Positions 8,547 through 55,957 of a DNA stretch of 64,000 bases are shown here, one piece after another. Source of the stretch: Azolla caroliniana (lineage: Eukaryota > Plantae > Polypodiophyta); the NCBI GenBank assembly GCA_043228905.1, contig JBHGNT010000015.1, positions 17,360,001-17,424,000 of the forward strand, read 5' to 3'. A model generated the notes under the pieces. The model was not told the DNA's origin. It made no database searches and saw only the letters and a list, made by a program, of their open reading frames with translations. Position 1 is the first letter of the stretch. Every line of letters starts with the position of its first letter. Position numbers and translations under genes: made by a program.

Positions 8547-8557
8547 AGATGCGCACG

Positions 8558-13400: not shown

Positions 13401-16190
13401 CTTCTTTCACGCGGGTCGCGTAATTGGGGTTCATGCGGTAGCGGCGCTGCTGGACAGGTTTCACGTCAGTTGCTAAATTGATCTTATGCTGAGAGAACTT
13501 GGGATCTAACCCCTTCATGTCCTCGTGGGCCCAAGTGAACACATCTTTATATTCCGTGAGTAGTGCGATCATTGTGATTCTCTGGTCCGGCCTTAATTCC
13601 TTTGTGATGGAGAGGAACCGGGGCTCCGATTCCGTACCCACATTTACTTCTTCGAGAGCGGAAGCGGTGACTCGTCGTGAAATCTCCATTTCCCTTTCGA
13701 ATGCCGGCCGTGCTCTGCTGAGTTCCAATATGGACTCTGGGTTTGGTTCGTATGGCTCGTCGTGCGGAACAGTGGCCGTAGTATATTCTGTCGTAGTTGC
13801 GATGACATCTATTTCGAACAGCGGAATAATCCGAGGATGTTCGTCGAGGTACGCCTCCAATTCGGCATCCTCCACCCCAGCCAGCATATTTATGTCCTCT
13901 GCGTATAACGGTGTTATACCCTTAGGTTGTGGCGTGTTGCCTTCCGTAGGTACGTGAACCTTGGTGCGTCCATGCCAGAAACTGATACACTCGTGTTGCC
14001 AACTCTGCTTGATATTTGTTGTCCAAAGCCATGGTCTGCCGAGAAGCACTAGGTATGCTCCTAGGGCGTCCAAAGCGAGGACGACCGTCGATATGTCGAA
14101 GCGGTGTCCGCCCACGATGATGCCTATTTTGCGAACTAACCCCAACGGTCGCACTGAGCGGGTATCTGTCATGCGGAGCCAGAATGGACACGCCTCCCAT
14201 TTGGAAATGCCTAACTGTTCGCAATTTTTCGCGCTAATTACATTGACGCTTGAGCCGTCGTCGATTACGCATCCAGGAACTTCCTGTCCGTGCAATATTA
14301 CTGTAATAGCCGGGTTGTGTTGATCCACCACCGGTGGTCCATCGCTGACGTCTGTCAGGTTTGTGGCAACGCTCGCCCCGGGTATGCCCGCCACCTGTGC
14401 TTCCATGGTCTAGCGGAAACGTGGAACTAGCTATAGTAGTTTTTCCATGGTTAACGTGATTTCACAGCCTACTAACACCTGCCAAATGGGGTTCAGCCCC
14501 AGTCTTTCGTTCTCTGTGTGCTCCATTGTGTTCGCGGACTACTGCCGCATACGTTCCGTATTGGTCACGTTTGCTTTTTCCACCCAGGCTTGGGCTTGTC
14601 GTCGTACCTCGTCCTGCGCAGCCCAATCCGCCGTTTTTGTTTGCTGACGTGTCATGACTTGTTGTACCTCCGCCGTAATCGTATTGACGGCGGGCCCCTT
14701 TCCCTTGCATGCCGGGCATTGCGTGGCATAATTTATGGGTTGCTGACAAATAAAACAATGGATGCTTGATTCTCCCTTCTCGGGCCCAGGTGGTGTGTGC
14801 CGATCTCCGGGTGCTACTTGCTCTTCGTGGTCCGGCCTCGTTTGTCGGAACGTACACGGTGGCTGATGTTGGTCCCGTCGTTGTTCCTGGTGCCGCTCAT
14901 CCCCCGAGCTTTCGTCGTAACGCCGGTGATCCCTATATTGCCGAGGCTTACCCCGATAGCCATTGAAGCCGCCCCGTTTGTTTGTCGGGCGTTGATGTTC
15001 GTAGCGCCGACCCCCTTTGGTGTAACTCAGATGTCCACGATAATCCTCGTCCTCTAGGTCGTCCTCCTCGAACTCATTGTGATTCCAGCGATTCCGGTTG
15101 TACCAGTCCTCCCGCGGGTTGCGATCCTTATACCGGGGTCGGTCTTCTTGCCTCCTTTGTTCAGCCCGGTGCGGTTGACGTTGTGTGTCCATGTTGCGGA
15201 CCGCGGGAGTGGCTCTGTTTAACATATTGTACTCGCATTGGTCGACTGTGTGAACCTTCGAGTGGCAGATTGGGCAGTGGATTCGCATATTGCTCTCCAC
15301 CACGGAATGCCCTGAGTTCAAGCAAATCGTGCACTGAATTGCTTGACGAAATTGGCGTTCCTCATCTTGAAGGATGACATCGAAAACCTTTCCTCCTCGT
15401 CATCCAACTCGAGTTGTAATGCTCGTTCAATTACCATATCCGTCGTTTCCCCTTTCACGCTATTGTTGTTGAGTGTTGCCCGGATGGGCCGGCGTAAAGC
15501 TGCTAGAAATGTCTCCCGAGCCTCCTCCTCCACGGGGCTTCATTCCAGTTTCTGTCGTAAATTTTGGAAACATAAGTTGAAGTTCGCTATCGTCTCGGTC
15601 GGTAGTTGCTTAATTGTATAAAACTGCCCGAGAATCTCGCGTTGTGGAACCCTCCGATGGAAGAATCGCAAGAAAGCGGACTGCAGCTAATCGAAGGTTG
15701 TTATAGCTGGTAAGTCCATCTGTGAATGCCAGAACGCCGCACACCCATCTAATGTTAATCCGAACTCCGTCATTTTCGACTGGTGTGCCACCGTCTCGGA
15801 GAGATTCTGCGCCATGTGGTTCGCATTCCAGACATTCAAGAACATGCGAATATGAGTTGCGGCGTCGGTTTCACTGTTAAAGCGGGGGTACGAACAGGCC
15901 ATAGTGGGAGCTACGGCGGATCGGGAAAGGTCACAGGGTGGTTGTCGTGTGCGTGGTCCCTGCATCTCGTCAAGGTATTTGGGGAGCGAAGAATTCCCTT
16001 TGCACTCACGGCAGGTAGTACTAAGGTCGTTGATGCACGGCTTCTGCCGTGCATGTCCTTCTGCCTAGCGTGTGACGGACCTTGTTATTGGCCGGTCTTG
16101 TCGTGTTGGTTCTCTGGGTCGTCTGCGGCTAAACATCCATTCATTGTTGCTCGTCTGTGAGGAAACACAGATCACCAAGCGTGCCAAAAG

Positions 16191-16840
16191 TGTTGTCGTT
16201 TAGGAACACGGTCTGTGGTCAGTCCTTCGACCTAGACCTCAAGGTGGGTGTGGAACAACGAACAGGGGTTTACGCGTAATGCGTAAGGGGAGAACTCATG
16301 TAACCTTTCTGCGTATAAGGGAAGACGGCTACAACCGAATCCCTATCAAAGGTTACACTTACGTACTACCACGCTTAAGTATCTGAGACACCGACACTGA
16401 ATTAGCCGCAGCTATACACAGAAAATCCGAGAAGATAGAATTCTATTATCAAGCGTTCTTTACATTCCCAAAATTACACACACCCCCATAAGAGGTTTTC
16501 TGCCCTTTATATATGCAGGGTCTATTTAGCCGTTCACGCTTCCTGCGTGAACCGTTCCATGTGTTATGCTCTTATATAGTTTCTTATTCCTACGCTTTTG
16601 TCCGCCGGTTACTATTCCGGTGGACAATAGTGGGTCAACTTTTGTAGCGAGCGCACCAGCACCAGGTACGACTCGACGCCACGGCGGTGGTATGGGACGC
16701 CGATCAAGGTTCAAGTTCGTCTTGATCCCTTTGCTTGGGGGTGGTCAGGTGGATCAGCACCCTTCTTTCTCAGATCTCTCCTTTCTATCTATCTATCTTT
16801 TATCCTTATCATCTGCTTACTTTATATCATAACTCTAACA
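16191..16840 (-). repeat. Probable 5' LTR of element B
   Basis: Adjacent to the PBS; TGTT/AACA termini; TATATAAA at about 16506-16513 (minus); abuts the interrupted LTR of element D; partner LTR is outside the window. Confidence 0.65.
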
Positions 16841-18013: not shown

Positions 18014-19168
18014 AGCAAGTAGTAGCTTGTACTAAACTCGAGTCTATTTCATTAGAAATTTCTAATAGTTCTAATAGTACTAATTGCCCAAATCTATCGA
18101 ACAAATTTGAAGTCCTTAGCAATTACAAGAAGAGTTAAACAACTAAGTCCAGCCAAAATAGGAGTCGTTTGGTTGGACAACCCTAGATCTGTGCAGCCCA
18201 TTAGTGGTTCCATTCCCTCTAAGCAAGTTAGCAATGTGTTCTTAGCAAGTAATGGTTAGTATTAAAAGTACTCCTCCAGTACATGTCTTAGCACTCTTAG
18301 AGTCCGGAGCCAACTCTTGCTTCATGGATAGGAATTTTGCCCGAGCTCATTAGATATCCCTAAGAAAACTTTCTTTCCCAACATCTATAGTAGTTATTGA
18401 TGGTTGTCCCATTGCTTCCGAAAATATCGTAGAAGAGTTAGAGCTGATTCAGGTTATCCTAGATAATTTGGTGTGTGTAGTATCATTTAATATAATTAGT
18501 AGTGCATATCATCCAATTGTCTTGGGGTTACCATGGTTCGAATTACAAAACCTAGACATAGATTGGAGAATAAGAGAAATCCGGTATCAACAAACCCAAG
18601 GACCTACTCATAGGATTGCAACCATTTCGTTACACCAATTACGTGAGGAAGGATGCAAGGAAGCAATGTTTGTCTTCGTAGTATCAATAAAACCTTCCAA
18701 CACCACTAAAGAGGAATCCACAGTTCAACTTCCAAAGAAGTATCGTCATTATGCCGATGTGTTCGATATGGTACAAGCCAGTATGCTTCCTCACCACCGA
18801 CCGTATGATTGTCCCATTTATTTACAACCGGGAAAAGAGGCAGCACAGAGACCGATCTAAAACTTGTCACCAACCGAGTTGGAAGTCCTTCAAGCCTACA
18901 TAGAGGAGAATTTGGCAAACGGTTTCATTCGACATTCGAAATCTCTAGCTAGAGCACCCATTTTCTTTGTCAAGAAAAAGGATGGATCATTTCGTCTCAT
19001 CGTAGATTACCATGGCTTGAATAAGGTCACTATTAGGAATAGGTATGCACTTCCCCTTATCTCGAGTCTTTTAGAATGGATCAATGCTGCAAAGTTCTTT
19101 ACAAAGATCGATTTACGAGGAGCATATAACCTCTTACGGATCCGACCAGGAGATGAATGGAAGACCAC

Positions 19169-20709
19169 TATCGCGGAAATCCGCGGGTACTAGTCTAAAA
19201 GGGGCGGGATCACATGGGTCTCAAACAAGGAAGAGATGGATGCCAGGAGACCGACTCTCTCTGGTCCTGACTATGGCGCAAACCGGAGAGATTTTGGATG
19301 CGTACTAGAGGCTACCGAACACGAGCGAGGGAGAGAGAGAGCATATTGGATGCGAGGGAGAGAGAGAGCAAGGGAGCGATTTTGGATGCGTGCAACACCG
19401 ACTCAACACACGCTACTTATGTACAGAAACGGAAAGAAGAAACTCCGAAGACACCGACATAGACATAGACGCACGGAACTTCACTTATGTATCTTTACAA
19501 GAGTGAGATACAAGGTAGATTAGGTTACAACAACGGTCTACTACCAAGCCGCCGATCGGGGAGCTCTCGGGCTCGTTGCGTTGTCGCGTTGTTACACGCG
19601 TGCGTGGGGAACGAGGCGGGACCACCGGGGTCTTGGACCGAGAAATAGTTGAGAAGGAGGAGAGCGGAAAGGCAATGGACGCACTTGCACACGCACAGAC
19701 ACGGGGCACACAGGAATCACAGTCCAACAACACAGCAAACGAGACGACTAGAAGTCCGAGTATATGAACACGTATGTATATAAATATATATATATATATC
19801 GAGACGGTTACAACTAGCAGGCCGGCAAGGCGAACACCAACGCCTGTTCACTCACACACACAAGAGCGAGATGGAGGCTCTGCCGGAAGCACACAGGCGT
19901 TCCGCGGAGCAGAGTCAGTCTCCCGAAAACCTGCGCAAAATGGCTATGGAGAGTGGCAGAGGAGAAGGGCTCGGTCCCAGTCCGGCAGCACTTTCTCCTC
20001 TCTAACGCGTGATACCCTTTCCATTCCTCTCCCTCTCTTTTATAGCCCAAGGAAGGAGGTCGTTATCATCCGTTACATCATATTAATTCTCTGTCCTTTC
20101 GGACAGGGATACCCCCCTCGATTCTCTCCCTATTGCATGTGTGTTACCTAGGACTTCACCTCAGCCGACTTGTACCTACCTACTTACTATACAACGAAAA
20201 GTGTGCTCGCGTGTAAGGGCCGGTTTACACACGCTAAACTCGGTTTCCGCCTAGGGACGGTTTTCTTCACGACAGCGTTGAGCGGGGTCTTGCACAGGAG
20301 ATAGAGTGGAAGCGAAACCCCTTTGGACATACAAGCTCTTAACCGGACTAAACCCTAAATAGACACGAAGACTCAACCCACATGATGACGAAGAAGAAGA
20401 AGACCTAGATGAAACCCTAAAGAAAATTAGTAAGGAAGAAAGTAACTAATAAGAGAAAAGCTACCATACCTTCGACCTAAGTGGTATACCCTCCTAACTC
20501 AAAATGGGCAACCCTTTTACAAGGAACCCTCCCTTCCTTTTATAGCACAAGGAGGAAGAGGCGTTACAATGTGGGATAAATATCCCCCCAATTTATTCAA
20601 CATACATCTCCTAATGTACATCTATTACAAGAGGGAGTGCACATGGTGCACCCCGTCAATATCACCAACTATTTTGGTTTTCACACTGTGACTGTGAATC
20701 CTCACGACA
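19169..20709 (-). mobile_element. Solo LTR (about 844 bp net) inserted in the RT of element D and carrying a second solo LTR
   Basis: RT codons KT|AF split; ends TATCGCG..CACGACA; 4-bp TSD CCAC/CCGC; TATAAAA on the minus strand near 20537-20543. Confidence 0.8.
19582..20274 (-). mobile_element. Solo LTR (693 bp) nested in the previous solo LTR
   Basis: TGTCGCG..CACGACA ends, 4-bp TSD GCGT (19578-19581, 20275-20278), TATAAAA on the minus strand near 20037-20043. Confidence 0.82.
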
Positions 20710-23246
20710 CCGCATTTCACATCAAATATGGGAACTTCGAGTATACAATTAGCCATTCGATCTCACTAATGCGCCAGTAGTCTTCCAGCACATGGCAAAT
20801 GATATATTCCGCGATCTCTTGGATATTTGTTTGATCATCTATTTGGATGATCTACCGATTCATTCGAAGACTCAAGAAGAACATGATTCTCATGTACTAT
20901 TAGTACTAAAATGACTTCAAGAACATAATCTGTATGCAAAACTAGAAAAATGTTGTTTCGAGTGTAACCATGTGGAATTTCTAAGCTATGTCATTTCCTC
21001 GGAAGGGATCTCTATGGATCCAGCTAAGGTCAAAACGGTGGTAGAATGGCAGACTCCACGTTCGTTGCGAGATGTGCAATGCTTTATAGGCTTCGCCAAT
21101 TTCTACCGCAAGTTTATACAAGATTACTCACACAGCTTACCAAGAAGGGGTAGTCATTTGTTTGGTCTAAAGAAGCAGACACGACTTTTGTGAGTCTTAA
21201 GAAAGCATTTACATCAGCTCCTATTCTTGCTCATGTTGATCCAGAAAAACCATTCCATCATTGAGGCAGACGCGTCGAATTTCGCCCTGGGTAGCATTTT
21301 GCCACAACAAGGCAATGATGAAAAGCTACATCTGATGGCTTTCCACTCACGCAAGTTTGACGCCATTGAAATCAACTATGAAATACATGACAAGGAGCTA
21401 TTAGCAATAGTGGAATCTTTTACACAATGGAGGCATTTTTTAGAGGGATCTTCTCATCAAGTCACCGTATTCAGTGATCAGAAAAATCTTGCCTACTTCC
21501 AGAATGCTCATGTATTAAATCGACATCAAGCTCAGTGGGCCCAATTCCTCACTCGTTTCGACTTCAAAATTACATATCATCCTAGGAAGCAGCCAGGGAA
21601 GGTAGATGCGTTATCACGGCGCTCGTATCTAGCACCGCGCCCGGTGAGCCAGCATTCGATAATCAAAAGCAAGTAATCTTGGGACCGGCACGACTGCAAG
21701 CAACGTGGGTTTTCGATACGCCATTGGATTCCCACATTATCAATACCATACGTGAAGACTTGAAGACAGACACTTTCACTCATTCTAGCACAAATTGATC
21801 CCTCTCGTGCATCTTGTTCACAGTTGCAACAACCAGGTACGGACTATCGACAATTCGAATGTCATGATGGATTATTATTCTTCAAGAAACTCTTGTCTAT
21901 TCCAAATGGTTCTTGTCGCCTTCGAGTAGTCCAAATTTTTCATGACACATATATAGCCGGGCATTTCGGTAGTACTAAAACGTTGGATTTAGTACAACGA
22001 TCATTCTGGTGGCCTCATATGCGACGATTTGTCGAAGACTATGTTTGGACATGTGATACATGTTGCAAAGCAAAGACGCCAAGACATCATCCATATGGTT
22101 TATTGGAACCATTACCAATTCCAAGCAAGTTCCAAGCAAGTCGTGGCAATCCATTTCTCTAGATTTCATCACAGATCTTCCAGTTTCAAAGGGATTCGAT
22201 GCGATCTTGACAGTAGTCGATCGATATACGAAGATGGCACATTTTTTTCCTTGTACTAAGGAAATCACTAGTGAAGAAACCATCGAAACTGTCATGCGTG
22301 AGGTATGTCGGCATCATGGCCTCCCCGATAGTATCATCAGCGACCATGAACCCCAATGTCTCGAAATTCTGGAAGCATCTCTTCAAAATGCTCAAGGTCA
22401 CTTATAACCTCTCCTCCGGCTACCACCCGCAAACAGATGGACAAGCAGAACGAACAAATCAAATGCTGGAACAATATCTTCGGTGTTTTCTAAGCTATCA
22501 ACAAGATGACTTGGCGGATATTCTCCACTTTGCCGAATTTGCGTATAATAACTTTGTCCACTCATCGACTAGGGTTACACCATTTTATGCTTATACATGC
22601 TATCATCCTCGGTGATGTGTATTCGAAACTCTAGAGTTACCCACAAATCCTTGTGCAGAGGATCGTTTAGAACGGCTACACAAGATACAAGCAGACTTAT
22701 CTACTCATTTACAACAAGCTCAACAAACACATAAGGATTATGCGGATCGTCATCCGCTTCCATTCAGTTTTAACATTGGAGATCGTGTATGGCTATTACG
22801 ACGACACATCAAGACTACTCGCCCATGCGATAAATTGGACTATTGACGATTAGGTCCTTTTCGTATTATCGGAAAAATTAATGATGTCGCTTTTCGTCTC
22901 GATCTACCTCCACAACTATGGATACATCTAGTTTTTCATAGTTCTCTTCTCGAACAGTATCAAACACTATTCTGAATCGTATTTCACCACCTCCACCCTC
23001 GATCGAGCTTGAAGCAAGACCAGTACGAAGTAGCTGCCATCCTCAATTCCAAGATTGTTCACAACAAGCTCTACTATTTGGTTGATTGGCTAGGCTATGG
23101 GCCAAGCGAGCATACTTGGGAACCAGTCGAGAATGTGGTAAATGCTCGAGCTCTTGTTGAGAACTTTCATCAGCAATATCCCGACAAGCCAGGTCCTCCA
23201 TCTAAGACGCGTCGTCGTCTTGGGGAGGGGGGGGGGGGGGAGGTAG

Positions 23247-23550
23247 TGTCATGATATAGCATGGTATGGCTTCAGAAGGATTTGAACCCATGACCTTGTG
23301 TCACATGGGTTGAAGCCTTACCATTAAGCTATACATTGTAATACAAAAAAATTTATTTCCATTTATTATTTCACATAGGAAATCCATGTATATTCTAGAT
23401 TTCTCTGGAACATTCTAGAAATGTTAAGAGTATTCCTAAGCCACTTTAAAAAGAGGCACACGGCATTATTGAGAGCCAAATTGTTCAACGCCAATCTTAA
23501 GCCTCTGAGCTATTCTTGTATATTCTCTTCATATAATATATATCTTTTGT

Positions 23551-23613
<63 letters not shown>

Positions 23614-23698
23614 TCTCCTGAGAGTTCTACACCCCTCTTAGTACTAATCCTCATCTTTTAGTACTAATTCCCTCTCTGTCTTAGTACTATTGCTGACA
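23247..23698 (+). repeat. 3' LTR of chromovirus D
   Basis: TGTCA..TGACA, follows the G-rich PPT, 3' part matches 16841-16944. Confidence 0.92.
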
Positions 23699-25239
23699 TT
23701 CTCTGGCCAATTAAAAGGTATGCATCAATGTCTTTCTCTGTTTATTTCTCTGTTTTTTCCTCTTGTCTCCTAACAATGATGACAACAATCTACAAAGTGA
23801 TCATATAATTTCTTAGAGATTTTTACTATTACTCCCTCCTGGAGAAAACACCTTCGATTACCCCTCCTCAGTAATCAGATCAAGGTATTGTGGTGTAAAG
23901 GAGAGTGGAGGTTACGGCGCCCTGCCGAGACTATTAGTCGAGTCGTTACGGGGTATAGGACTTCCTCATGCTTGTGACCGTTATTCAGATTGCCCCACTT
24001 GGGTGGGATTACGACCATGGAATTAAGAAGGATATGTTGCGGGATCGGCTACAACCGATCCTTAGATACGTCTTTTACACAGACTGAACTTATACGTGTA
24101 TATATATATATAGATATAGATATATATATCAGAATATAGATGAGACAAAACACTAAAGTTACCCACCAAATGTATATATATTCAATTAAAGTGTAGCATA
24201 CAAATACAAGCCAATGGATAATGATAACGTCTATCCAATGAATACAGATCTCATGAAATATTATGACACGAGTTTATTTATACCTAAGGGTGATTTTACA
24301 TTTAACAAGGCTTGTTATGAATTAATGGTTAGTGATATATTAGGCCTCTGTAAAATATCAAAGAGTATTGTTAATGGGAGATGAAGAAATATATTTAAAG
24401 GATTCTCCTAATTTAAGGATACCCTATATTGAACAATGGGGAGAAATAGTGGCAAATGCTTATGTTAAAACTAGTCATCTAGGGCTAAAAGATACATTGT
24501 AGGAAATAAAGAAAGGTTGTTCAATACACACACAATATGATGGGCTATCAAAAGTGTATGTGAAAGCATGCATCGATGCCTACATATGTCAAAAAATACA
24601 AAAAAGGTAACCTTTAGACAGACAACAACATACAAGTAGCGCCCCAAATGAAGAGTTTGTAGTAGAAGAATCCATGTTGAGGGTGGTATTAGATGACACT
24701 CAGGTTATATACTCTACATGCTTAAAGAACTATGTACCAATATCAAATATCTAGAATGTTATGTTTGTCATCTTGGGGGAGAATCAAGAAGGGATATCAA
24801 ATGCATTCGTAGATGTAAGACTACCAAACAATGTGGATGCACTTTTCGTGTGAATGTTAGCAGGTCAATTGAAAGTATATGCCCAACACAATGGCCATGA
24901 TCCAAGTGCACCACATGAGGTATATCATTTAAAGGTATATCCAAATGTCATTAAATGTATTATGGTGATTTTTTTGACGTTGGATGTGTGAGGCACGTAG
25001 CAAGGATAAGCATAAGAAAAGCTACTATCCATAAGGCCAAAGTGACTCCTATTGAGAGAGTTGTGTTTAGGTTCTTCATGCTCACAATGGAGGTTCATAA
25101 CATGGCTAGCAAGTTGAATGTTAAAGTCTTTACAGCTTAAAGTAGGCACCGCAATAGTGGTAGAAAATTTGACGACTTCATTCAATCTATCAGCTTCTGT
25201 AAAAGTGATGAGGACCACTGCCACTTTTCGAAGACAGCT

Positions 25240-25830
25240 CAAGATGGGTCACCCATCTTCCTCATCCTCTCTGTGGACGACATGATTCTCTTCAGTCGGC
25301 ATGCCGGAGAGCTTGCCGATCTCGTTTGGCAATTGCGGTTTAAATTTTCCATGAAGGACTTAGGTTGAGTAAGACACATTCCGGGTATGAAGATCAGTCA
25401 GCTTTGGAATCAACGACAATTATTTTTGTCTCAGAATGACTACATTCGACATGTCTTGGAACGCTTCAACATTCAATTGGCCAAATCTACTTCAACCCCG
25501 CTCCCCATTAGCCTTCGGCTGTCTCATCGAGATTGTCTGAAATCCGGTCCAGAGGGGAAAATCACGAAGTCAATACCTTTCACACCGGCAGTCGGCTCCT
25601 TAATGTACGTGATGGTCACGACACGGTCGGACTTAGCTCATGTCGTAGGAGTCGTCAGTATATTTATACGCAACCCTGGACAATCACATTGGAACACGGT
25701 TAAGCATGTGTTCAGATATCTAGTGGGCACACAAGACTACGACGTCCTCTTCGAACCAAACAAAACCTCAGGCGTTGTCGGCTACACCAACTCGAACTTT
25801 GCCGATTGCTTGGAGTCAGTCATGTTGTAG
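25240..25830 (+). pseudogene. Copia RT fragment
   Basis: LSVDDM..MKDLG..LFLSQ..AVGSLMYVMVTTRSDLAHVVGVVS. Confidence 0.8.
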
Positions 25831-28800
25831 TTTCGAATCCTGCGATTCAGCTATGTTTATTGTGTCCTCTAGATTGATCATCAGTTATTGTACTTGCATC
25901 CACACCCGATTTTCATGTTTCCTCGGTTGATCATCTATGACAACTCACTGAGAGTCGTTTGGGACCCGGCTTTAGCTAGCATACCAATGGAGACCAGACT
26001 CCTCTTCAGCACGGGTACATATTGGACTCGATGCAAGGTGATGATATTGCCATTCGGCAACTGAATGGGAACTTCGTCGATCCCTGTGATTAAACACTCA
26101 TGCCCGTTGCCTAGTCGGATTGTGTCACTGGATCCGACTGAATAGTCTGAAGACCATTCGATGGTGGGAGTCACATAAAATGTGGCACCGGAGTCCAGCA
26201 ACCACGTTCACGCTATATATAGGACTTCACTAGTCGACGACTCCCCTAGGGAGAGGATTTCTCTAGACCGAGATTCGGCAACATTGACTTGGTTGAAGGT
26301 AGGAGAATTGTTCGAATCAAATTGTCCTTGTGTTCGATCGAATCTTTGACCATTCTCCTTTCTTTTCATAGACTAGTAGTCGGAAACGTTGTAATTGGTC
26401 TTTTTGCAATGTGTGTAGAAGATACTTGATCAACTATTCCTCGACTTCGACCATTATCAGTCTTCCCTCCTTCTCGGTCAACTAGTGTTTCGACTAGCTC
26501 TTTTGGCTTATTCTCTCGATCAGCTGGTTCGTTCGATCAACTCGGTCGAGTAGTGGGCTTCTGCCGATTCATCGATAGTGAAACCCATTGATTTTTGCCA
26601 AATGTCCTCAGTGAGGACTTGGCTTGGCCAATCGTTTTTTCCAAAGCTAACTTTGGACAATTGTTGGCGAATGTCGTGCAAAATACCTCCCAACTCACCG
26701 TCAAGCTCAAAAGAAGGGCAAGGGCTTTAACTTCTTCTTCAAAATTAATCCTTTAGGAGGAGATTTCGGACAACACACAATTGAAGGTGTTGATGTGGGA
26801 GGTCGCTGAATCCGTCTCTCATCTTCATATTGAAGAACTGTCTTATCAATGAGCTTTGATGAAGACGATTTCTTTTTGTAAATGGCTTGGAGCTTCTCCC
26901 ACAAGGAAAATGTCGACGTCTCTTTGGCCATGCTAAAGTTGTCAGGAATAGTACTAAACAGAGAGAGAATTAGTACTAGAGAAGAGAAGTACTATTAGTA
27001 CTAAGAGGACGGGATTGCGTAAGATTCCCGAGAGAGGAAGTGAGAAGAGGAGAGAGAAAGAGATAGCGAGAATGAGAGAGAGAGAAAGATGATGACAACA
27101 TCTAATATATTATGTGAAAGATAAGTAAAAAGTGGCTAAGAGGCTTAAGACTGGCGTTGAACCAATTTGGTTCAACATAATGCCTAGTGCCTTCTTTTAT
27201 AGTGTTCTCAGGAGTAATCCTGAAACTTCTAGAATGTTCCAGAGAAATCTGGAATATACATTACTTTCTTATAATAAAGCATAAATGAAAATAATATCCT
27301 ATGAATTACAATAGATGGTGTGATGGTTAAGAGCTCGACCCATATACCATAAGGTCATGGGTTCGAGTCTTGCCATATCATGACACTATCCCCCCCTTAA
27401 GACGACAAGTGGAACGAGTCGATGTTGATTGAGGACCGGGTTTGTCGGGATACTGTCGGTGAAAATCAGCAAGAAGATCCTGAGCATTGGCGACATACTC
27501 AATGGGAAAGTTTGTTGCGAACAAATTTGGAGTCGAGGATGGCAGCAACTTCATACTCCGGGCCGGCGTCAAACTCAAGCGGGGGCGGCGGTGATGTAAT
27601 ACGATCGGGAATAGTGTTTGCTTTATAAGGTTCCAGAAGAGAACAATGGAAGACTAGATGTATCCGAAGATGCAGAGGAAGATCAAGGCGAAACGTGACA
27701 TCATTAACCTTACCGGTAATACGGAAAGGACCGAGTCGTCGATAATCCAACTTATCGCACGGTCGAGTAGTCTTGATGTGACGACGTAAGAGCCATACTT
27801 GATCTCCGATGGCAAAAGAGGAGGGAAGCCGATGACGATCCGTGTAAGTCTTCTGTGTCTGTTGAGCATGACGAAGATGAATCGAGAGATCTGTCTGGAT
27901 CTTGCGTAGTCTCTCCAAATGATCCCCGGCACGAGGATTGGTAGGTAGCTTCGGGGTGTCGATCACCGACTAGCGAGGATGAGAACCGATATAAGCGTAG
28001 AATGGGGAGACTCGAGTCGAGGAGTGAACAGCATTATTATACGCAAACTCCGCAAAGTGGAGAATCTCAGCCCAATCGTCCTGTTGATAACTCAGGAAAC
28101 ACCGGAGATATTGCTCCAGCATTTGGTTTGTTCGTTCCGCCTGCCCATCGGTCTGAGGATGGTAGTCGGAGGAGAGGTTGCAAGAGACCTTGAGCATCTT
28201 GAAGAGATGCTGCCAAAATTTGGAGACAAATTGCGGTCCTCGGTCACTGATGATACTGTCTAGGAGGCCATGATGCCGAAATACCTCACGCATGACAAGG
28301 GCGGCGGTTTCCTCGCTAGTGATGGCCTTAGTACACAGCACAAAATGTGTCATCTTCGTATATCGATCGACGACGGTTAAGATAGCATCAAACCCCTTCG
28401 AGACTGGCAGATATGTGATAAAATCAAGACAAATAGACTGCCACGGCTTACTTGGAATCGGTAAGGGTTCCAACAAGCCATATGGATGGTGTCATGGCAT
28501 CTTTGCTTGGCAGCAAGCATCACAGGTCCGAACGTAGTCGTCAACAAAATGGCGCATGTGGGGCCACCAAAAAGATCGTTGCACTAGCTCCAACGTCTTA
28601 GTACTATCGAAATGTCCCGCCGTATGGGTGTCATGACAATTCTGGATGATTTGAAGGCGACAGGAGCAATCGGGGACATATACGCGCTTTTTAAAGAAAC
28701 AAACCATCATGATATTCGAATTGTCGGTAGTCAATACCTGGTTGTTGAGACTTAGAACAGGATGCCCGAGAAGTATCAATGTGTGCCAGGATGTCTTGAG

Positions 28801-31800
28801 CAAAACTATCCATCTTCAAGTTTGCACGTATGTCATTGGTAATCCGTGAATCCATCGGGGTGTGAAAAAACCGCGTCGTGTGCAATCGTGTTGGTCCCAA
28901 GATTACTTGCTTTTGATTATCAAATGTTGGATCATGAGGACGAGGTGCAAGGTATGAACGCCATGATAGTGCATCTGCTTTTCCTTGTTGCTTCCCCGGT
29001 CGATATGTGATTTTGAAGTCGAAACGCGTGAGGAATTGCGCCCACCGAGCTTGTTGTCGATTTAGTACGTGAGCGTTCTAGAAATAAGCAAGATTTTTAT
29101 GATCACTAAAGACAATGACCTGATGTGGAGAGCCCTCTAAGAAATGCCGCCATTGCACAAATGAATCCACGATGGCTAATAACTCCTTATCATGTATTTC
29201 GTAGTTGATTTCCACGACATCGAATTTGCGCGAATGGAAAGCCACATGATGTAACTCTTCTTTATCTCCTTGTTGAGACAGGATGCTACCGAGGGCGAAA
29301 TCTGATGCGTCAGACTCCATGATGAATGGTTTGCTTGTATCCACGTGAGCTAGAATCGGTGCTGATGTAAAGGCTTTCTTAAGATGCCGAAAAGCCATAT
29401 CTACTTCATTGGACCAAAGAAATGCTTGTCCCTTCTTCGTAAGTTGTGTGAGAGGTAAAATAATCTTCGAGTAATCCTGTATAAACTTACGGTAGAAGTT
29501 AGCAAAAACTAGAAAACATTGTACATCTCGTACCGACCGTGAAATTTGCCACTCTAGTACAATTTGGACTTTAGTTGGATCCATGGCGATGCCCTTTGAG
29601 GAGATGACGTAGCCTAGAAATTCCACTTGCTTGCAGTCAAAGCTACATTTTTCTAGCTTGGCATAAAGACCATTCTCGCGGAGTCGCTTTAGTACTAATA
29701 GTACATGAGAATCGTGCTCTTCCTAGGTCTTCGAATAAATCAATAGATCATCCAGATAGATGATCAAACAGATATCCAAGAGGTCTCTGAATATATCATT
29801 TGCCATGTCTTGGAAGACTACGGGTGCATTGGTTAGGTCAAACGGCATAACAGTATACTTGAAATGCCCATACTGCGTGCGAAAGGCGGTCTTCCATTCA
29901 TCTCCCGGTTGGATCCGCACGAGGTTATACGCTCCTCGTAGAGCGATTTTGGTAAAAAACTTGGCACCATTAACTCGCCCTAAAAGACTTGATATAAGAG
30001 GAAGTGCATACCTATTCCAGATGGTGACCTTATTCAATCCGCGGTAATCAACGACGAGACGAAGTGAGCCATATTTCTTCTTGACAAAGAAGATGGGTGC
30101 ACCGGCCAGAGATTTCGAATGACGGATTAACCCACTTGCCAAGTTCTCCTCTATGTAGGTTCGAAGGACTTCTAACTCAATGGGTGACAAGTTGTAAATT
30201 GGTCCCCATGGTGGCTCGGTTCCTGGTTGTAAATCGATGGGACAGTCATAGGGACGGTGATGAGGAAGGGTACCAGCTTTTACCTTGTCAAATACATCGG
30301 CATAAGGATGATATTTTGCTGGAAGTTGTACTGAGGAGTCCTTAATAGTGCTGGACGGATGTACTGATATTGCAAATAGGAACATTGCCTCCTTGTGTCC
30401 TTCTTCGCGTAATTGATGGAGTGAAATGGTCGAAACTCGGTGAGTAGATTCTTGGGGTGGTCAATATCGAACTTCTCTTGTTCTCCAATCTATGGTTGGA
30501 TTATGTAATTCAAACCAAGGTAATCCTAGGACAATGGGATGCTCTAGACTACTAATTATATTAAATGATACTACACACACAAAACTACCTGGGACAACTT
30601 GAATGGGTTCTGATTCTTCTACAATATTCCCGGAAGCAATGGGATGACCATCAATGACTACTACAGATGCGGGACAAGGAAGTTTTCTTAAGGATATCTG
30701 AGAAGCTTGGGCAAAATTTCGATCCATGAAACAGGAATTAGCTCCGGAATCTAAAAGTGTTAGGACGGGTACTGGGGGAGTACTTTTAGTACTAACAATG
30801 ACTTGGGCTAGGAACACATTGCTAACTTGCTTGGGAGGAATGGAACCACTAATGGGTTGTACAGATCTAGGGTTGTTGTCCAACCAAACGGCTCCTATTT
30901 TGGCTAGACTCAATCGTTTAACTCTTCATCTAATTGACTAAGGATTTCAAATTTGTTTGAGATACTTGGGCTATTAGTACTATGAATACTATCTGACACT
31001 CTATTAGTACTATTAATACTATCAGACACTCCGAAGGGAAGAATTGACTCGGGTTAGGTACATGCGACGATTTGATTTACCTGTCTTCTTGGCCTATGGG
31101 GACAATTGATGGCGATATGCCCTGGTCCACCGCAATAAAGACATAATCGATTGGCACGTCGTCGTTGCTTTTCTTCTTCCGATAACGGGCCGCGTCGACG
31201 CATGGTGTCGATCTCGATCGATGTCGAAATATTGGCTTGAGGTACATCGCGTGCAAATGGTTTAGCCGTGACTGAGGCGTATGTGGGTTCCGGCTGAGAG
31301 TGTGGTATTTGTAACTGACGTTCCGAACGCCGTTCGAAAAGGCAGTTGTCGCATCGGACCGCTCGACCGATTGCCTCCGTAAGAGACTTTGGTTCTTCGG
31401 GGAAGGTTAAAAGCAAGTCTTTGACATCGTTGCGCAAGCCGTAGCGAAACTGCTCCATGAGGGCCTAATCATCCTAGGGATATTTGAGGCGAGTAGATGA
31501 AAATCCGCCGTGTAGGCAGAGGCTGGACGATCACCTTGATGCAATCTTCGAATCTTGTTGATTGTCGTCCTGATGATGTCGGTATCTCCAAAGCAGGCTT
31601 TAAACTCACCAATAAAATCTTCAAAGTTATTAAGCAAGGGCGATTGTTTTTCTAGAAGCGGAGCGAACCATGCCAAGGCTAAGCCGCTAAGTAACGTGCC
31701 TATTAGGCCGACTCAAGATGCATCACTGGGATATCGAGAAGGATGCATCTGGATGACTAAGCGTACCTGATTAAGGAATCCCCGGAATTGCAATCGCGTT

Positions 31801-33871
31801 CCATCAAATTTCACAAGTCCAATCTTGGGCTCTTTATGAAATCCTTGGGGACTTGATCCTTGTTGTTGTAACGCTACTTCGAATTGTTGTACCCATAACG
31901 CTAACTCCCCACGTTGTTGTTGCGTTTGTTGTTTTTCTAGAGCGATTTGTTGCAGATCCCCTATCAACCGTTGGTTTTCTTGTTCCAGGGCAACAAACTT
32001 TTCTTTTAGACACTGTAGCTCAGAGAAAACGGTGCCGTGAATTACGAAAGCTTCACATTAAAAGTCTACAATAAGATAAATACATAACTAAAATAACATT
32101 TGATAATGTTTTATATATAAAGATAATATTAACAACACATATGATAAATTTATATATATATAAAGAAAAATAATATATATATATATAAATAAATATATTA
32201 TATTACACGAACAAGAGAGGACTTCAACCAATAACCCCACCCTATGACACTCAAATCTTACCATTTACTCTATACTAGTAATATACATAAAATAAAGCAT
32301 ACTTTATATTACATAAAGGATTTGCTTCATGATATAAAAATAAAGTTGTATGTTGTATTCAATAGTATTTTGAGACTTGAACCCACAACCTCATACACCA
32401 AAGTCAACACACCTACCATTAGGCTAGGTCCTTTCTCTTTAAGATTATATTTTCATGTTTATTTTTATTGCATATATTGTTTCATACATAAAAGCTCAAA
32501 TGAGCGAGATGTTTATCATGCATCACATGCATGACTTGTACCCTCCAATGCATCATATGCATGGGGGCACCTATTTAAATGGTGAAAGAGAATATCAAAG
32601 GAAGAAGTATGAGATATCAAGCAAATTATGTATTACATAAGAGATACCATAAAAATAGAGAAAGAAGGGAAGAAGTTGAACATAAACATGGAGCTCTAGC
32701 TTGGAGGTCGTGGTGGTCAACTCTCAACAAGAGGGAGGCGGTTCGAGCCTTATCTTCATCAAAATATTGAAGTGAAGATTGTAGTGGTCTACGATCAAGA
32801 AAGAGAAGAGCGATTACCTTGCAAGACAAAGTTAGGAGGTTCAACGACGTGCACAATCATTTTGTAACTCTTTCATGAAAATGATTATAAATTTCATACA
32901 CTTTCTCATATATTATTTTATATCTTATCTTGTCTTATCTTATATTCCTTAAAAATCCTATTTTGTCATATCTTATTGATCTGTATTCACTCCATCTCTA
33001 CTCTTTCATCTCTTCCGTCCATAATCCCAGTGATTCCTTCCTCACTTTCACGTTATCCTTTGTGTGCGCAACGCTACGCTTCTAGGCGAGCCACGTTGTC
33101 GTGCCTTTCGGCTCCGGATCGTTGCGTGAGTCGGGTGGGAACCGCCGAGGTTTTGGACTAGGAGAAAGAAGAATATGAGATGAGGCTAGTAATGAATAGA
33201 TTATTAGAAAGAGAGATAGAAATTTCGTGAATCCCACGAGTGTATTTTATTCGATTAATCAATATTTAGATAAGAATATGTATTTAGATTGAAAGAAAGA
33301 TATAAGAAACTTGTGAATCCCACAAGTATAGATTATATTATTTTCGTGAATCCCACGATTATATTAATCGGTTGGTGTTTTCGGAAATATATCCAATTTC
33401 CAAATATTTCACACACCTATTACATTGTGCTCCCCATCCTTATGTAGTGATGGGAGAGACTAAGCATAACTACATGCTTTTTCTAATATGTTCATGCACA
33501 CTAAATATGCATGTGATGCTTTTCTAATCCTTGCTTTTATTTGCTAAATATAGTGCTCATGCACGCTAGATGTGCATGAGTCACTTTTTAGTTGCTTGCG
33601 TTTTTCTATAAAATATTCACGCACTCTAAAAATGCACGATTTACCTTTTAATAAAGGTAGGCGCAAATAAAGCACTTATAGTTATTAAATCTATTTATAG
33701 AACACTAAAGATAAGGTAGCATAATGGTAAAGTTGAGGTTTGGCTACGTGGAGGTACAAGGTTCAAATCTTGCCCTATGCACGTGATAAATATCTTGATA
33801 TTTTTATTTTATTTATTGGTGATAAATATCTTGATATTCTTATTTTATTTATTTATATGTAATTAAATCGG

Positions 33872-35680
33872 TTATATTATTTTTACTTTTTCACGTAGTG
33901 TACGAAATACACTACGACACTCGCCCCCTCCGAACCCGCACATCCTCCGGTATGTGCCGAAGTTGCCGATGCTCGTTGTCTCCCCTTCATCCTCCGTTTG
34001 TCCCGCTATGTCAACTTTGTCTCTCCATTTTGAGTAGACCCATTCTTTCCACCCGAACCATTGTCGCCATCCGATCCACCATATTCTTTGTTCATTCTTT
34101 GCATTGCCATGAGTGGTTGTCATGGTCCCTTGTGGTACTCTTGAGCATCTCGGTGTGTTGTCTCTCTCCACTCCGCGCTTGTCTTCCGTAGGTTCTACCC
34201 ACGCGTCGATGTCGACCTCCGAATACGCGCTCGCTGTTAGGTCCTTGTGCGGCTTTAATGCATGCTTTATTTCTCGATGTTGCGCATGCGTCGTATTAGG
34301 CCGTAGCGCATGCTTCGTATTCCATCGTAGTGCATGCGCCGTATTACCCCGTAGTGCATACTTATTTTTGCACCGTAGCGCGTGCTTCTTTTTGCGCCGT
34401 AGCGTGTGCTTCTCTTTACGCCGTAGCACGTGCTTCTTTTGGTGCCGTAGTGCGTGCTCCGTATTACATGCTTCTCCCATCGTAGACCCGACCTTCGCGT
34501 TGTCATGCTTTTGTTTACATCGGAATTTCAGACGGATCATCTTCCATCCGAACCGGCTTCCGACTTTACCTTCCTTGTTGCCACCTCCCGTCTCTCCGGT
34601 CTCACGTTGGTTCTCGGACACAACCGCCGAAGTCTCTAGAATTAGTGGGTAGGAATCCTCGGTATTATCATCTTCCGTTGTTTCACCCATAGCCATGTTC
34701 TCCTTGGCTATCTCTCCTTCGTATGCATCGGCTTCGACCTTCGTTTCGTTGCCGCCACTTTCCTTATCTTCGGTGTTATGTCGACACCCGGGCTCCAGTA
34801 CCGAAGTCTCCGAAACAATGGTGAAGGAATCCCTTCGTTCGTGCTCATTTACTTTGTCTTCCTCGTTGCCCTTCCGGTCCTCCACTTTTCCACCGACACA
34901 TTCCGTCTCTCCGGTCTCACGTTGGTGCACGGGCACAGCCGCCGAAGTCTCTGGAACCGGTGTGGGGATACCCTTTCGTCCTCGATCTTCCTCCTCCTCG
35001 TCCTTTGTTGGCCTCGACTTTGGTTCGGTTTTAAGCTCCCCTTCAATGTCGACTTGCGACTTTTCATGCATCTCCGAACCCTTCCGCATCAAGCTCTCCT
35101 TCGGTGGTAGTCGGTGGCCGCTTTTCACCCACTGTTGACCGCCGTTCGTGGACCATGTCCTCGTCCGCTTCGGTCTTAGATAGTCATATGTGTCTCGTAT
35201 AGCTTCTTCAAAGGACTCCCACATCGGGCTTTGTTGTCGTATCTCGTGGATTCTCTCTTGAAGCTCATCCGTAGCCACCCGGTTGAAAGATAACACTTGC
35301 AATCTTTCTGAGATACCATATCGCAACATCTCCATTTTGTAGTCACGTAGATAGCGTGACACGTCCTTTCCATCGAATTGCCCGTTCTGTTGCACGAGCC
35401 GTTGTACTACTGTCGTGATCTCCGACATCTCGCGTTGTTCTTGTAGCATTCTCTCGAACATCATCATCATCATGTTCATCGCCTCTTGTTGATTCTCCAT
35501 CTCCTTGCCACCCGCCTTCACGTCGGGTTCACCAACTTGTGTCGTGCCTTTCGGCTCCGGATCGTTGCGTGAGTCGGGTGGGAACCGCCGAGGTTTTGGA
35601 CTAGGAGAAAGAAGAATATGAGATGAGGCTAGTAATGAATAGATTATTAGAAAGAGAGATAGAAATTTCGTGAATCCCAC
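33872..35680 (-). CDS. Gag-like protein with acidic and basic repeat extension (602 aa open frame; likely start at MENQQ near 35500)
   Basis: FDGKDVSRYLRDY..EM..WESFEEAI capsid-like segment; uninterrupted frame; 8-aa HALR repeats. Confidence 0.72.
   Translation of the reverse strand: MGFTKFLSLFLIIYSLLASSHILLSPSPKPRRFPPDSRNDPEPKGTTQVGEPDVKAGGKEMENQQEAMNMMMMMFERMLQEQREMSEITTVVQRLVQQNGQFDGKDVSRYLRDYKMEMLRYGISERLQVLSFNRVATDELQERIHEIRQQSPMWESFEEAIRDTYDYLRPKRTRTWSTNGGQQWVKSGHRLPPKESLMRKGSEMHEKSQVDIEGELKTEPKSRPTKDEEEEDRGRKGIPTPVPETSAAVPVHQRETGETECVGGKVEDRKGNEEDKVNEHERRDSFTIVSETSVLEPGCRHNTEDKESGGNETKVEADAYEGEIAKENMAMGETTEDDNTEDSYPLILETSAVVSENQRETGETGGGNKEGKVGSRFGWKMIRLKFRCKQKHDNAKVGSTMGEACNTEHALRHQKKHVLRRKEKHTLRRKKKHALRCKNKYALRGNTAHALRWNTKHALRPNTTHAQHREIKHALKPHKDLTASAYSEVDIDAWVEPTEDKRGVERDNTPRCSRVPQGTMTTTHGNAKNEQRIWWIGWRQWFGWKEWVYSKWRDKVDIAGQTEDEGETTSIGNFGTYRRMCGFGGGECRSVFRTLREKVKII
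35517..35534 (-). promoter_or_regulatory. Primer-binding site complementary to the tRNA-Trp 3' end
   Basis: Plus strand reads TTCACGTCGGGTTCACCA, matching the recalled 3' end of plant tRNA-Trp(CCA); five bases from the LTR. Confidence 0.85.
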
Positions 35681-37580
35681 GAGTGTATTTTATTCGATTA
35701 ATCAATATTTAGATAAGAATATGTATTTAGATTGAAAGAAAGATATAAGAAACTTGTGAATCCCACAAGTATAGATTATATTATTTTCGTGAATCCCACG
35801 ATTATATTAATCGGTTGGTGTTTTCGGAAATATATCCAATTTCCAAATATTTCACACACCTATTACATTGTGCTCCCCATCCTTATGTAGTGATGGGAGA
35901 GACTAAGCATAACTACATGCTTTTTCTAATATGTTCATGCACACTAAATATGCATGTGATGCTTTTCTAATCCTTGCTTTTATTTGCTAAATATAGTGCT
36001 CATGCACGCTAGATGTGCATGAGTCACTTTTTAGTTGCTTGCGTTTTTCTATAAAATATTCACGCACTCTAAAAATGCACGATTTACCTTTTAATAAAGG
36101 TAGGCGCAAATAAAGCACTTATAGTTATTAAATCTATTTATAGAACACTAAAGATAAGGTAGCATAATGGTAAAGTTGAGGTTTGGCTACGTGGAGGTAC
36201 AAGGTTCAAATCTTGCCCTATGCACGTGATAAATATCTTGATATTTTTATTTTATTTATTGGTGATAAATATCTTGATATTCTTATTTTATTTATTTATA
36301 TGTAATTAAATCGGTTATATTATTTTTACTTTTTCACGTAGTGTACGAAATACACTACGACAACGTCACGACAACGGATTGATATTCTTGGGCGCTAACA
36401 GTAGCCATAGTATAGAAAAAGGATAGGAGGAGGAGGGAAAACGACAAGTAGACTTGAGGAAGGAAGAATTTGGTTCAAACTGTCAGGAATAGTACTAAAC
36501 AGAGAGAGAATTAGTACTAGAGAAGAGAAGTACTATTAGTACTAAGAGGACGGGATTGCGTAAGATTCCCGAGAGAGGAAGTGAGAAGAGGAGAGAGAAA
36601 GAGATAGCGAGAATGAGAGAGAGAGAAAGATGATGACAACATCTAATATATTATGTGAAAGATAAGTACAAAGTGGCTAAGAGGCTTAAGACTGGCGTTG
36701 AACCAATTTGGTTCAACATAATGCCTAGTGCCTTCTTTTATAGTGTTCTCAGGAGTAATCCTGAAACTTCTAGAATGTTCCAGAGAAATCTGGAATATAC
36801 ATTACTTTCTTATAATAAAGCATAAATGAAAATAATATCCTATGAATTACAATAGATGGTGTGATGGTTAAGAGCTCGACCCATATACCATAAGGTCATG
36901 GGTTCGAGTCTTGCCATATCGTGACAAAAGTAGACGTTCTCGGCTAGATGTATTCGAATGATCGGCCTAGCTATCTCATCCAAAGAGCACCATTTGTTTG
37001 TTGTCATCGAGGTTGGCTTGTTATTGTGTTGTATCGCCTCGATTTGATGTCAGATGATCAGTACATCCTACATCATCCCCTTCCATAGAGCAAAGCTCGT
37101 GTCGTCAAACTTCCGAATTTCCACTCCTGTGCCGAATGTTGAAGCCATGTTCTGTAGGAAGTGAGATTCGCTAACCTAGTCCTTTCCTTCAGTCGATTCT
37201 TCTCTTCTCAAATTTGTGTTGTTGTCGTTGTCGGACTGCAAGTCGCTTTGATACCAAATGTTGGATATTGAAGTTGATGTTGCAGAAGGTTGAGGACCTG
37301 TTAGTGAGTCTAGAAGACAATACAAGTAGCAAACAAGATAAAGTTATGCATTGTGACAAGATTCACAAAGGTGAAAGACAGAGAGATAGAGACAAAGATG
37401 TTTGAGCTCAAAGAGAGAGATTTTTGAGCTCAGAGAGAGAGATGTTTGTGCTTAGAGAGGCTATCTTACATTAGCCATTGATCTATGTTTGCAAGGTTAG
37501 TTACCCACTTATATAGTTTATTTAACTATGTGTTCACACTAGAGATACAAGGTGGGCAGAGTGGGACTTTTATCCCAACA

Positions 37581-55790: not shown

Positions 55791-55957
55791 CTCCATTCTG
55801 TGATCGGAGTTCTTCATTTTCCGTTTGAAAAGCTTTATCTTTCTATATAACACGAAGCAAAACTCGTTGGAAGGCCTGTTCTTGGTCTCAAGAGTCTATT
55901 TTCTCTCTGTTCCACACAGACTATGGACTGAGATGAGGGCGATGGAGTAGCAAAGGT

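What the first reader, a model, noticed from the sequence alone, without database searches (positions are those of the whole stretch)
19165..36377. Four insertions with TGTCG..CGACA-type ends all have 4-bp TSDs centred on CpG
Seen: TSDs are CCGC (left copy CCAC) for 19169-20709, GCGT for 19582-20274, ACGG for 32033-36373 and ACGT for 33097-36362, all NCGN. The LTR interiors look unrelated, yet all end in CGACA, and two pairs are nested in each other. The copia and chromovirus C have AT-rich 5-bp TSDs instead. Inference: one integrase lineage, apparently without an autonomous copy in this window, cuts around CpG and perhaps methyl-CpG, which would steer insertions into already silenced transposons. 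Sample size is only four.
Basis: partly seen in the sequence, partly recalled or inferred. Interest (0 to 1): 0.75.

Follow-up and report, generated by a model that had tools for sequence, protein, structure and literature searches.

The report
Phygy-like retrotransposons that insert at CpG
The four insertions belong to one abundant plant retrotransposon lineage that duplicates a 4-base target centred on CG; it likely belongs to the Phygy group already described with this habit in moss, and its integrase likely reads the CG sequence itself rather than methylation, so this is largely a known behaviour in a new host.

Summary
All four TSDs are as reported. Three elements are solo LTRs and one is a gag-only element with identical LTRs. 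Across the genome, 2112 of 2454 LTR starts not on the polypurine-tract side follow CGN (86%; 94.5% allowing any YR step). 52 of 61 two-ended sites have an exact 4-bp TSD and none a 5-bp one, while copia, chromovirus and a second non-chromovirus family have 5-bp TSDs. The target is better written VCGB (best ACGT). Intact autonomous copies exist elsewhere; their integrase ends in an SH3-like fold and a short acidic tail, with no chromodomain or methyl-CpG reader found. The 4-bp NCGN TSD, likely tRNA-Trp primer site and lack of extra domains match the published moss Phygy lineage (PMC6317226); no Phygy reference protein was available for a tree. The methyl-CpG steering idea gains no support: flanks are no more repetitive than those of 5-bp controls (109 of 155 vs 63 of 89) or of random CpGs (382 of 600). 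Methylation itself was not measured. One earlier scan note on other DNA of this genome also named Phygy; none of the notes returned mentioned the CpG target.

The parts
19165..19168 (.). E1 left TSD, CCAC (CCGC after a likely CpG deamination)
   Evidence: single CCGC in paralogous chromovirus RT copies
19169..20709 (-). E1: solo LTR of 844 bp (family 1), split by E2, inserted in the RT gene of a chromovirus
   Evidence: two-LTR relatives with LTRs of about 820 bp
20710..20713 (.). E1 right TSD, CCGC
19578..19581 (.). E2 left TSD, GCGT
19582..20274 (-). E2: solo LTR of 693 bp (family 2); full-length relatives carry gag-pol
20275..20278 (.). E2 right TSD, GCGT
32029..32032 (.). E3 left TSD, ACGG
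32033..36373 (+). E3: solo LTR of 1071 bp (family 3), interrupted by E4 at an ACGT 7 bp before its 3' end; relatives carry RT and integrase
36374..36377 (.). E3 right TSD, ACGG
33093..33096 (.). E4 left TSD, ACGT
33097..33919 (-). E4 3' LTR, 823 bp, identical to the 5' LTR (0 differences)
33920..33930 (-). E4 polypurine tract next to the 3' LTR
33872..35500 (-). E4 gag-like ORF (from first Met); N-terminal part 26% identical to the gag of an intact copy, E=1e-12; no pol
35517..35534 (-). E4 primer-binding site; its complement equals an 18-nt CCA-ended plant small RNA filed as miR894; tRNA-Trp identity recalled
35540..36362 (-). E4 5' LTR, 823 bp
36363..36366 (.). E4 right TSD, ACGT

Best explanation
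The four elements are solo LTRs and a gag-only derivative of one abundant non-chromovirus Ty3/gypsy lineage, likely Phygy, whose integrase makes a 4-bp staggered cut centred on a CG step, likely by reading the DNA sequence itself and not its methylation. Shown: 4-bp TSD, CG centre, VCGB preference, shared LTR ends and primer site, autonomous partners for families 2 and 3, no reader domain found. Inferred: the short stagger needs a sharply bent target and so favours a flexible pyrimidine-purine step, as for foamy virus integrase, and base contacts from the catalytic core or SH3-like domain narrow that to CG with no T before it and no A after it. Inferred: E4 and family 1 are moved in trans by such an integrase. 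Nesting in transposons follows because transposon DNA holds most of the CpGs, and because each insertion copies a CpG site next to CpG-bearing LTR ends and primer sites.
For: Genome-wide 2112 of 2454 host-side LTR starts follow CGN and 2320 follow YRN. 52 of 61 two-ended sites have an exact 4-bp TSD, 58 within one mismatch, 0 a 5-bp TSD, and 61 of 61 have CG in the centre on at least one side. 140 of 155 host-side ends are NCGN, 14 are TG/CA (deamination products) and 1 is other; controls 2 of 33, 2 of 28 and 1 of 28. 129 of 140 NCGN ends are VCGB against 43% of CpG sites in the genome sample. Intact 7.1-7.4 kb copies with 99-100% identical LTRs, gag and pol. Domain order PR-RT-RH-INT with no aRH or chromodomain hit at E up to 1; the integrase C-terminus aligns with the Ty3 SH3-type domain and ends about 30 residues later. 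Integrases of families 2 and 3 group with liverwort and fern proteins, far from the window's 5-bp elements. Phygy: 4 bp NCGN 100%, tRNA-Trp 81%, no extra domain (PMC6317226). Flank CpG density 0.053 vs 0.049 for random CpGs (95% interval 0.043-0.054) and 0.048 for controls; repeat-matching flanks 109 of 155 vs 382 of 600 random CpGs, 63 of 89 controls and 245 of 600 random positions. Central YR preference and base contacts for short TSDs: PMC4422553 abstract.
Against: No named Physcomitrium protein appeared in two homologue searches or the cluster look-up, so Phygy membership rests on structural features, not on a tree with a reference. Intact copies are 7.1-7.4 kb, below the Phygy range of 7.7-10.0 kb. 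The tRNA was not identified by a tool. No pol was found for the E4 family or family 1 in the copies held, so their integrase is assumed. The lineage's flanks are slightly richer in CpG and repeats than random CpGs (p=0.07 and 0.13), and 9 of 155 ends lie at a relative's LTR end or primer site against 1.3% of random CpGs, so some extra clustering exists. The proxies used cannot separate methylated from unmethylated CpG.
Confidence: 0.82

Rival explanations
1. The integrase needs or prefers 5-methyl-CpG and so steers copies into already silenced transposons.
For: The CG centre is nearly absolute (140 of 155 ends, 14 more explained by deamination). TG/CA changes on one side of a TSD suggest that these CpGs become or were methylated. 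About 70% of flanks match repeats.
Against: No chromodomain or methyl-binding domain found. Flanks are as CpG-rich and as repetitive as random CpGs and as 5-bp control elements. ZAM integrase binds and nicks CGCGCg-containing DNA in vitro (PMC2527525 abstract), so a CG-centred target needs no methylation.
Confidence: 0.08
2. Same mechanism, but the lineage is not Phygy: a separate seed-free-plant clade (or an aRH-less relative of TatI, which also has a 4-bp TSD and Trp primer) that reached a CG target independently.
For: No Phygy reference in the tree; copies shorter than the Phygy range; Phygy was defined as specific to Physcomitrella.
Against: Three Phygy hallmarks coincide (4 bp, NCGN, Trp-type primer site), and NCGN was reported for Phygy alone among plant lineages. 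TatI has aRH in 100% of elements and none is found here. Phygy has since been annotated in a liverwort (PMC12885004), and named relatives here include liverwort proteins at 57-63% identity over RT-RH-INT.
Confidence: 0.1
3. A host CG-binding or chromatin protein tethers the integrase, and the CG centre comes from that partner.
For: Ty3, the best sequence match among solved structures, is tethered by TFIIIB (entry title). The integrase has a short acidic tail that could bind a partner.
Against: The preference is confined to the 4 duplicated bases, with little signal beyond them, as expected for contacts at the active sites and not for a neighbouring tether. No regional enrichment over controls.
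Confidence: 0.06
4. Chance in four cases, or survival bias for insertions in CpG-rich transposon DNA.
For: The window's transposon cluster is CpG-rich (50 per kb vs 16 per kb in 40-64 kb).
Against: 2112 of 2454 genome-wide; control families in equally CpG-rich flanks show NCGN at 5 of 89 ends.
Confidence: 0.01

Closest known systems
Phygy lineage, non-chromovirus Ty3/gypsy of Physcomitrium patens (Neumann et al. 2019, PMC6317226; passages, section 9 and supplementary file 3 read)
   Same: 4-bp TSD, NCGN target, Trp-type primer site, no extra polyprotein domain, no extra ORF, coding region fills the interior; nests into chromoviruses as Phygy does into Tcn1 (PMC6911290, passages read).
   Different: Another host; intact copies 7.1-7.4 kb (Phygy 7.7-10.0 kb); target refined to VCGB with ACGT favoured; gag-only non-autonomous families; kinship not tested against a Phygy reference sequence.
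ZAM/Tirant errantiviruses of Drosophila (PMC2527525 abstract; PMC5408687 passages)
   Same: Gypsy-group integrase with a CG-centred palindromic target (CGCG); for ZAM the specificity is intrinsic to the integrase in vitro.
   Different: Animal elements with env; longer consensus CGCGCg; no kinship tested here, likely convergent.
Prototype foamy virus integrase (PMC4422553 abstract; PDB matches)
   Same: Closest solved folds; central flexible YR step plus base contacts set the target, more strongly for short TSDs.
   Different: Retroviral preference is weak and statistical; here CG is nearly obligatory; only about 18-19% sequence identity.
TatI and Selgy lineages (PMC6317226 supplementary file 3)
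   Same: 4-bp TSD; TatI also uses tRNA-Trp.
   Different: TatI carries aRH (absent here); Selgy uses tRNA-Ala and is 4.4-6.7 kb; neither has a reported TSD motif.

Membership tests
Ty3/gypsy LTR retrotransposon | LTRs with TG..CA ends, PBS, PPT, and pol order PR-RT-RH-INT | tested here: met
   protease recognised from its motif, not by Pfam
Phygy | TSD of 4 bp | tested here: met
   52 of 61 exact 4-bp, 0 of 61 5-bp
Phygy | TSD motif NCGN | tested here: met
   2112 of 2454 genome-wide; 140 of 155 ends
Phygy | PBS complementary to tRNA-Trp | tested here: inconclusive
   One conserved 18-nt PBS in all families whose complement is a CCA-ended plant small RNA; Trp identity is recalled, no tRNA gene with this end was found in DNA held
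Phygy | No chromodomain, no aRH, no extra ORF | tested here: met
   Pfam at E up to 1 on two intact polyproteins; ORF maps
Phygy | Element length 7.7-10.0 kb (descriptive) | tested here: not met
   7.1-7.4 kb for intact copies; the paper treats size as a weak classifier
Phygy | Phylogenetic grouping of RT/RH/INT with P. patens Phygy (the formal criterion) | not testable with these tools
   No named Physcomitrium sequence returned; tree has liverwort and fern proteins only
TatI | Archaeal-type RNase H (aRH) domain | tested here: not met
Chromovirus | Chromodomain after the integrase | tested here: not met
Methyl-CpG-reading integrase (proposed) | Known methyl-DNA or methyl-histone reader domain in integrase | tested here: not met
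Methyl-CpG-reading integrase (proposed) | Targets methylated before insertion more often than other CpGs | not testable with these tools
   No methylome; proxies show no excess

The most novel reading that the evidence does not exclude
The catalytic core or SH3-like domain of this integrase reads 5-methyl-CpG directly, with no dedicated reader domain, making the Phygy-like lineage a retrotransposon that senses DNA methylation at the cut site and so confines itself to silenced DNA across seed-free plants.
Probability: 0.08. Interest if true: 0.8.

Novelty: new member of a known kind. Interest (0 to 1): 0.25.

Why it matters
It extends a CG-specific integrase lineage, defined from one moss, to a genome where it has thousands of LTRs and recent intact copies, with relatives in liverworts and ferns. 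It sharpens the target from NCGN to VCGB and shows that plain CpG preference already raises the share of repeat targets from 41% to 64%, which is enough to explain the nesting. A nearly obligatory CG target makes this integrase a clean case for studying base readout by Ty3/gypsy intasomes. If it did read methylation, that would be a new targeting principle, but nothing here requires it.

Tried and rejected
1) The pol-bearing non-chromovirus at window 8547-16629 as autonomous partner: rejected; its LTR is TGTTG..CAACA, its primer site differs, 5 of 8 paired sites have an exact 5-bp TSD and 2 more one mismatch, and its integrase is 29% identical to the lineage's. My first count for this control used an LTR end one base off and kept internal flanks; it was redone. 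2) Search for a pol-bearing member of the E4 family among 13 further stretches chosen around E4-like copies and the two upstream stretches: only gag-bearing copies and one relative with the start of pol. 3) A named moss reference for the tree: none. The careful tree did not finish; the quick tree is reported. 4) Identifying the primer tRNA: no tRNA in the window, no useful Rfam match, and ARAGORN on 120 viral-contig pattern loci and the G000 loci found no tRNA-Trp. 5) TSDs in relatives outside this genome: 80 short metagenome loci gave 16 primer sites of the same type and 20 motif-anchored ends without a purine run, 11 NCGN and 5 TG/CA, but some of those motif hits are likely not LTR ends and no two-ended site was counted. 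6) AlphaFold model of the integrase (mean pLDDT 63) shows core, long helix and beta-barrel, then a disordered tail; listed fold matches are integrases only. 7) Literature: 'NCGN' with 'retrotransposon' gives only the Phygy paper as relevant; no listed paper was about methyl-CpG targeting by an LTR integrase; 'Phygy' with 'fern' gave 3 general papers, seen as listings only.
Full report
Observation. All right ends read CGACA. Left ends are TATCG, TGTCG, TGCCG and TGTCG; relatives of E1 and E3 have TGTCG. Paralogous chromovirus copies in the window hold the E1 and E3 target once, which confirms a 4-base duplication. The window copia and chromovirus C have 5-bp TSDs, TAAAT and AAAGT.

Anatomy. E1 (844 bp), E2 (693 bp) and E3 (1071 bp) are solo LTRs. 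E4 has two identical 823-bp LTRs, a primer-binding site at 35517-35534, a purine tract and a gag-like ORF, but no pol. In element orientation all start TGTCGT(G)A or a one-base variant and relatives of all four carry the same primer site 3-7 bases from the LTR. The complement of that site equals an 18-nt small RNA ending in CCA that is filed as miR894 (PMC5846777, passages read); that it is the 3' end of tRNA-Trp is recalled, not shown by a call.

Genome-wide test. The genome has 523 Mb. The LTR start TGTCGTGAAGAAAA occurs 4294 times (reversed control 1). 1840 of these follow GGA, the end of the purine tract, and are internal. Of the other 2454, 2112 follow CGN (86%) and 2320 follow YRN (94.5%); the remainder includes mutated purine-tract sides. 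Among fetched copies, 61 sites had both ends: 52 have an exact 4-bp TSD, 58 within one mismatch, none a 5-bp TSD, and all 61 have CG in the middle on at least one side (this includes the window's E2 and E4; family 1 was left out because its LTR ends did not align, and 11 of the 20 loci were used, those with clean TG..CA ends). Of 155 host-side ends, 140 are NCGN, 14 TG/CA and 1 other (ends with internal flanks or under 500 bases of flank were dropped, and two ends of one insertion are not independent). Controls: chromovirus C 2 of 33, the second non-chromovirus 2 of 28, copia 1 of 28 NCGN; copia 9 of 9 hand-paired sites have 5-bp TSDs, chromovirus C 4 of 7 exact. The target is narrower than NCGN: 129 of 140 NCGN ends have no T before and no A after the CG, against 43% of CpG sites in 44 arbitrary stretches; only 1 of the 100 listed matches is CGA (counted by eye). 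The E4 family leans to ACGT (12 of 21 exact TSDs vs 7 of 31, p=0.018).

Autonomous partner. Full-length copies with family-2 and family-3 LTRs carry RT and integrase. A young family sharing the family-2 5' end has intact gag and pol, 7.1-7.4 kb, with LTRs 99-100% identical. Two intact polyproteins give Pfam hits for RT, RNase H, zinc-binding and core integrase, a weak SH3 hit and DUF4100, and no chromodomain, aRH or methyl-binding family at E up to 1. The integrase ends in an SH3-type domain that aligns with Ty3 and a short acidic tail; the predicted model agrees, at modest confidence. Named relatives come from Riccia, Adiantum and Ceratopteris, and 19 of the 21 relatives checked have 0-56 residues after the integrase match, one has 99 and one is a chimeric protein. 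In a quick tree of 29 integrases the family-2 and family-3 sequences lie with these plant proteins, separated from the window's 5-bp elements with support 99-100. No pol was found for the E4 family or family 1. The pol-bearing element at 8547-16629 is a different lineage.

Does it steer into silenced transposons? CpG density in 490 bases of flank is 0.053 for the lineage (155 ends), 0.049 for random CpG sites (13141 sites; stretch-level 95% interval 0.043-0.054), 0.048 for the three control families (89 ends) and 0.034 for random positions. Flanks matching a repeat in the 435.6-kb sample: lineage 109 of 155, controls 63 of 89 (p=1.0), random CpGs 382 of 600 (p=0.13), random positions 245 of 600. 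So choosing any CpG already enriches for repeats, and the lineage is no more nested than elements with no CG preference. Against this reading: the lineage is slightly above random CpGs on both measures, the repeat library is small, and 9 of 155 ends lie within about 30 bases of a relative's LTR end or primer site, against 166 of 13141 random CpGs and 0 of 89 controls (p=0.0002; p=0.03 against ACGT sites only). One of the 9 is the window's own E4 and one is likely a chance motif. These places carry preferred sites by construction: the primer site holds ACGT and every TSD leaves a CpG beside an LTR end. Most repeat CpGs in plants are methylated (established knowledge), so these proxies show that methyl sensing is not needed; they do not exclude it.

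Mechanism. Shown: a 4-bp stagger centred on CG, VCGB preference, one lineage. Inferred: as for retroviral integrases, a short stagger needs a sharp bend and favours a central pyrimidine-purine step, with base contacts adding specificity (PMC4422553, abstract); ZAM integrase shows that a gypsy-group integrase alone can select a CG-centred site (PMC2527525, abstract; PMC5408687, passages). TG/CA variants are best read as later deamination, since most occur on one side of a pair.

Comparison with what is known. Neumann et al. 2019 state that Phygy elements prefer NCGN, the only plant lineage with a TSD motif, and tabulate 186 elements with 4-bp TSD (100%), tRNA-Trp primer (81%), 7.7-10.0 kb and no extra domain (PMC6317226; passages, section 9 and supplementary file 3 read; the per-element table and reference sequences were not seen and bear on membership). 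Phygy nests into Tcn1 chromoviruses in moss (PMC6911290, passages), as E1 and E3 do here, and has been annotated in a liverwort (PMC12885004, passages). The lineage works like Phygy and meets its TSD and domain features; the formal phylogenetic test could not be run. The host is likely a fern (earlier scan notes, and the tree neighbours; not tested). I found no description of the VCGB refinement or of methyl-CpG targeting in searches.

Verdict. Real, strong, and largely known: a new member of the Phygy kind with a modest refinement of its target. Interest 0.25.

Noticed in passing
window 8547-16629 (-) and L121:6694-7100: A second non-chromovirus with 5-bp TSDs; in relatives a tRNA-like site (TGGCACGCC...) sits beside the 3' LTR where a purine tract is expected, mirroring the primer site. 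Earlier scan notes describe this lineage as dual-tRNA-primed.
   Followed up: partly
L020/L021 (G000:C16:9634187-9637732): An E4-family copy inserted at the ACGT inside the primer-binding site of a related element; L029 is a solo LTR inserted directly at a relative's end.
   Followed up: partly
L004-L006 (G000:C19:15942977-15949067): E4-family array with three LTRs and two interiors under one GCGG TSD, likely from unequal recombination or tandem integration.
   Followed up: no
L122:3-1073 and L121:17-2505: About 19 kb upstream of the window lies an integrase 94% identical to the intact family, and 7-11 kb upstream an E4-related element with gag and the start of pol.
   Followed up: partly
L171 (G000:C15:18493474-18499089): One intact copy has gag and pol in a single 1872-residue frame, whereas most intact copies have two overlapping frames of about 709 and 1167 residues.
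   Followed up: no
window 34260-34470 (-): The E4 ORF holds a degenerate tandem repeat encoding basic HALR/HTLR-like units; no Pfam match.
   Followed up: no
window 55937-56548 (+) and 56300-57517: A Myb-domain exon followed by an intronic-looking tandem repeat of 151-157 bp units; the 40-64 kb part has a third of the CpG density of the transposon cluster.
   Followed up: no
L062 and window 19165: An E3-family solo LTR inserted at nearly the same CpG of a paralogous chromovirus RT gene as E1 did in the window; L316 and L205 show E4-family and copia insertions into the lineage's own pol.
   Followed up: no
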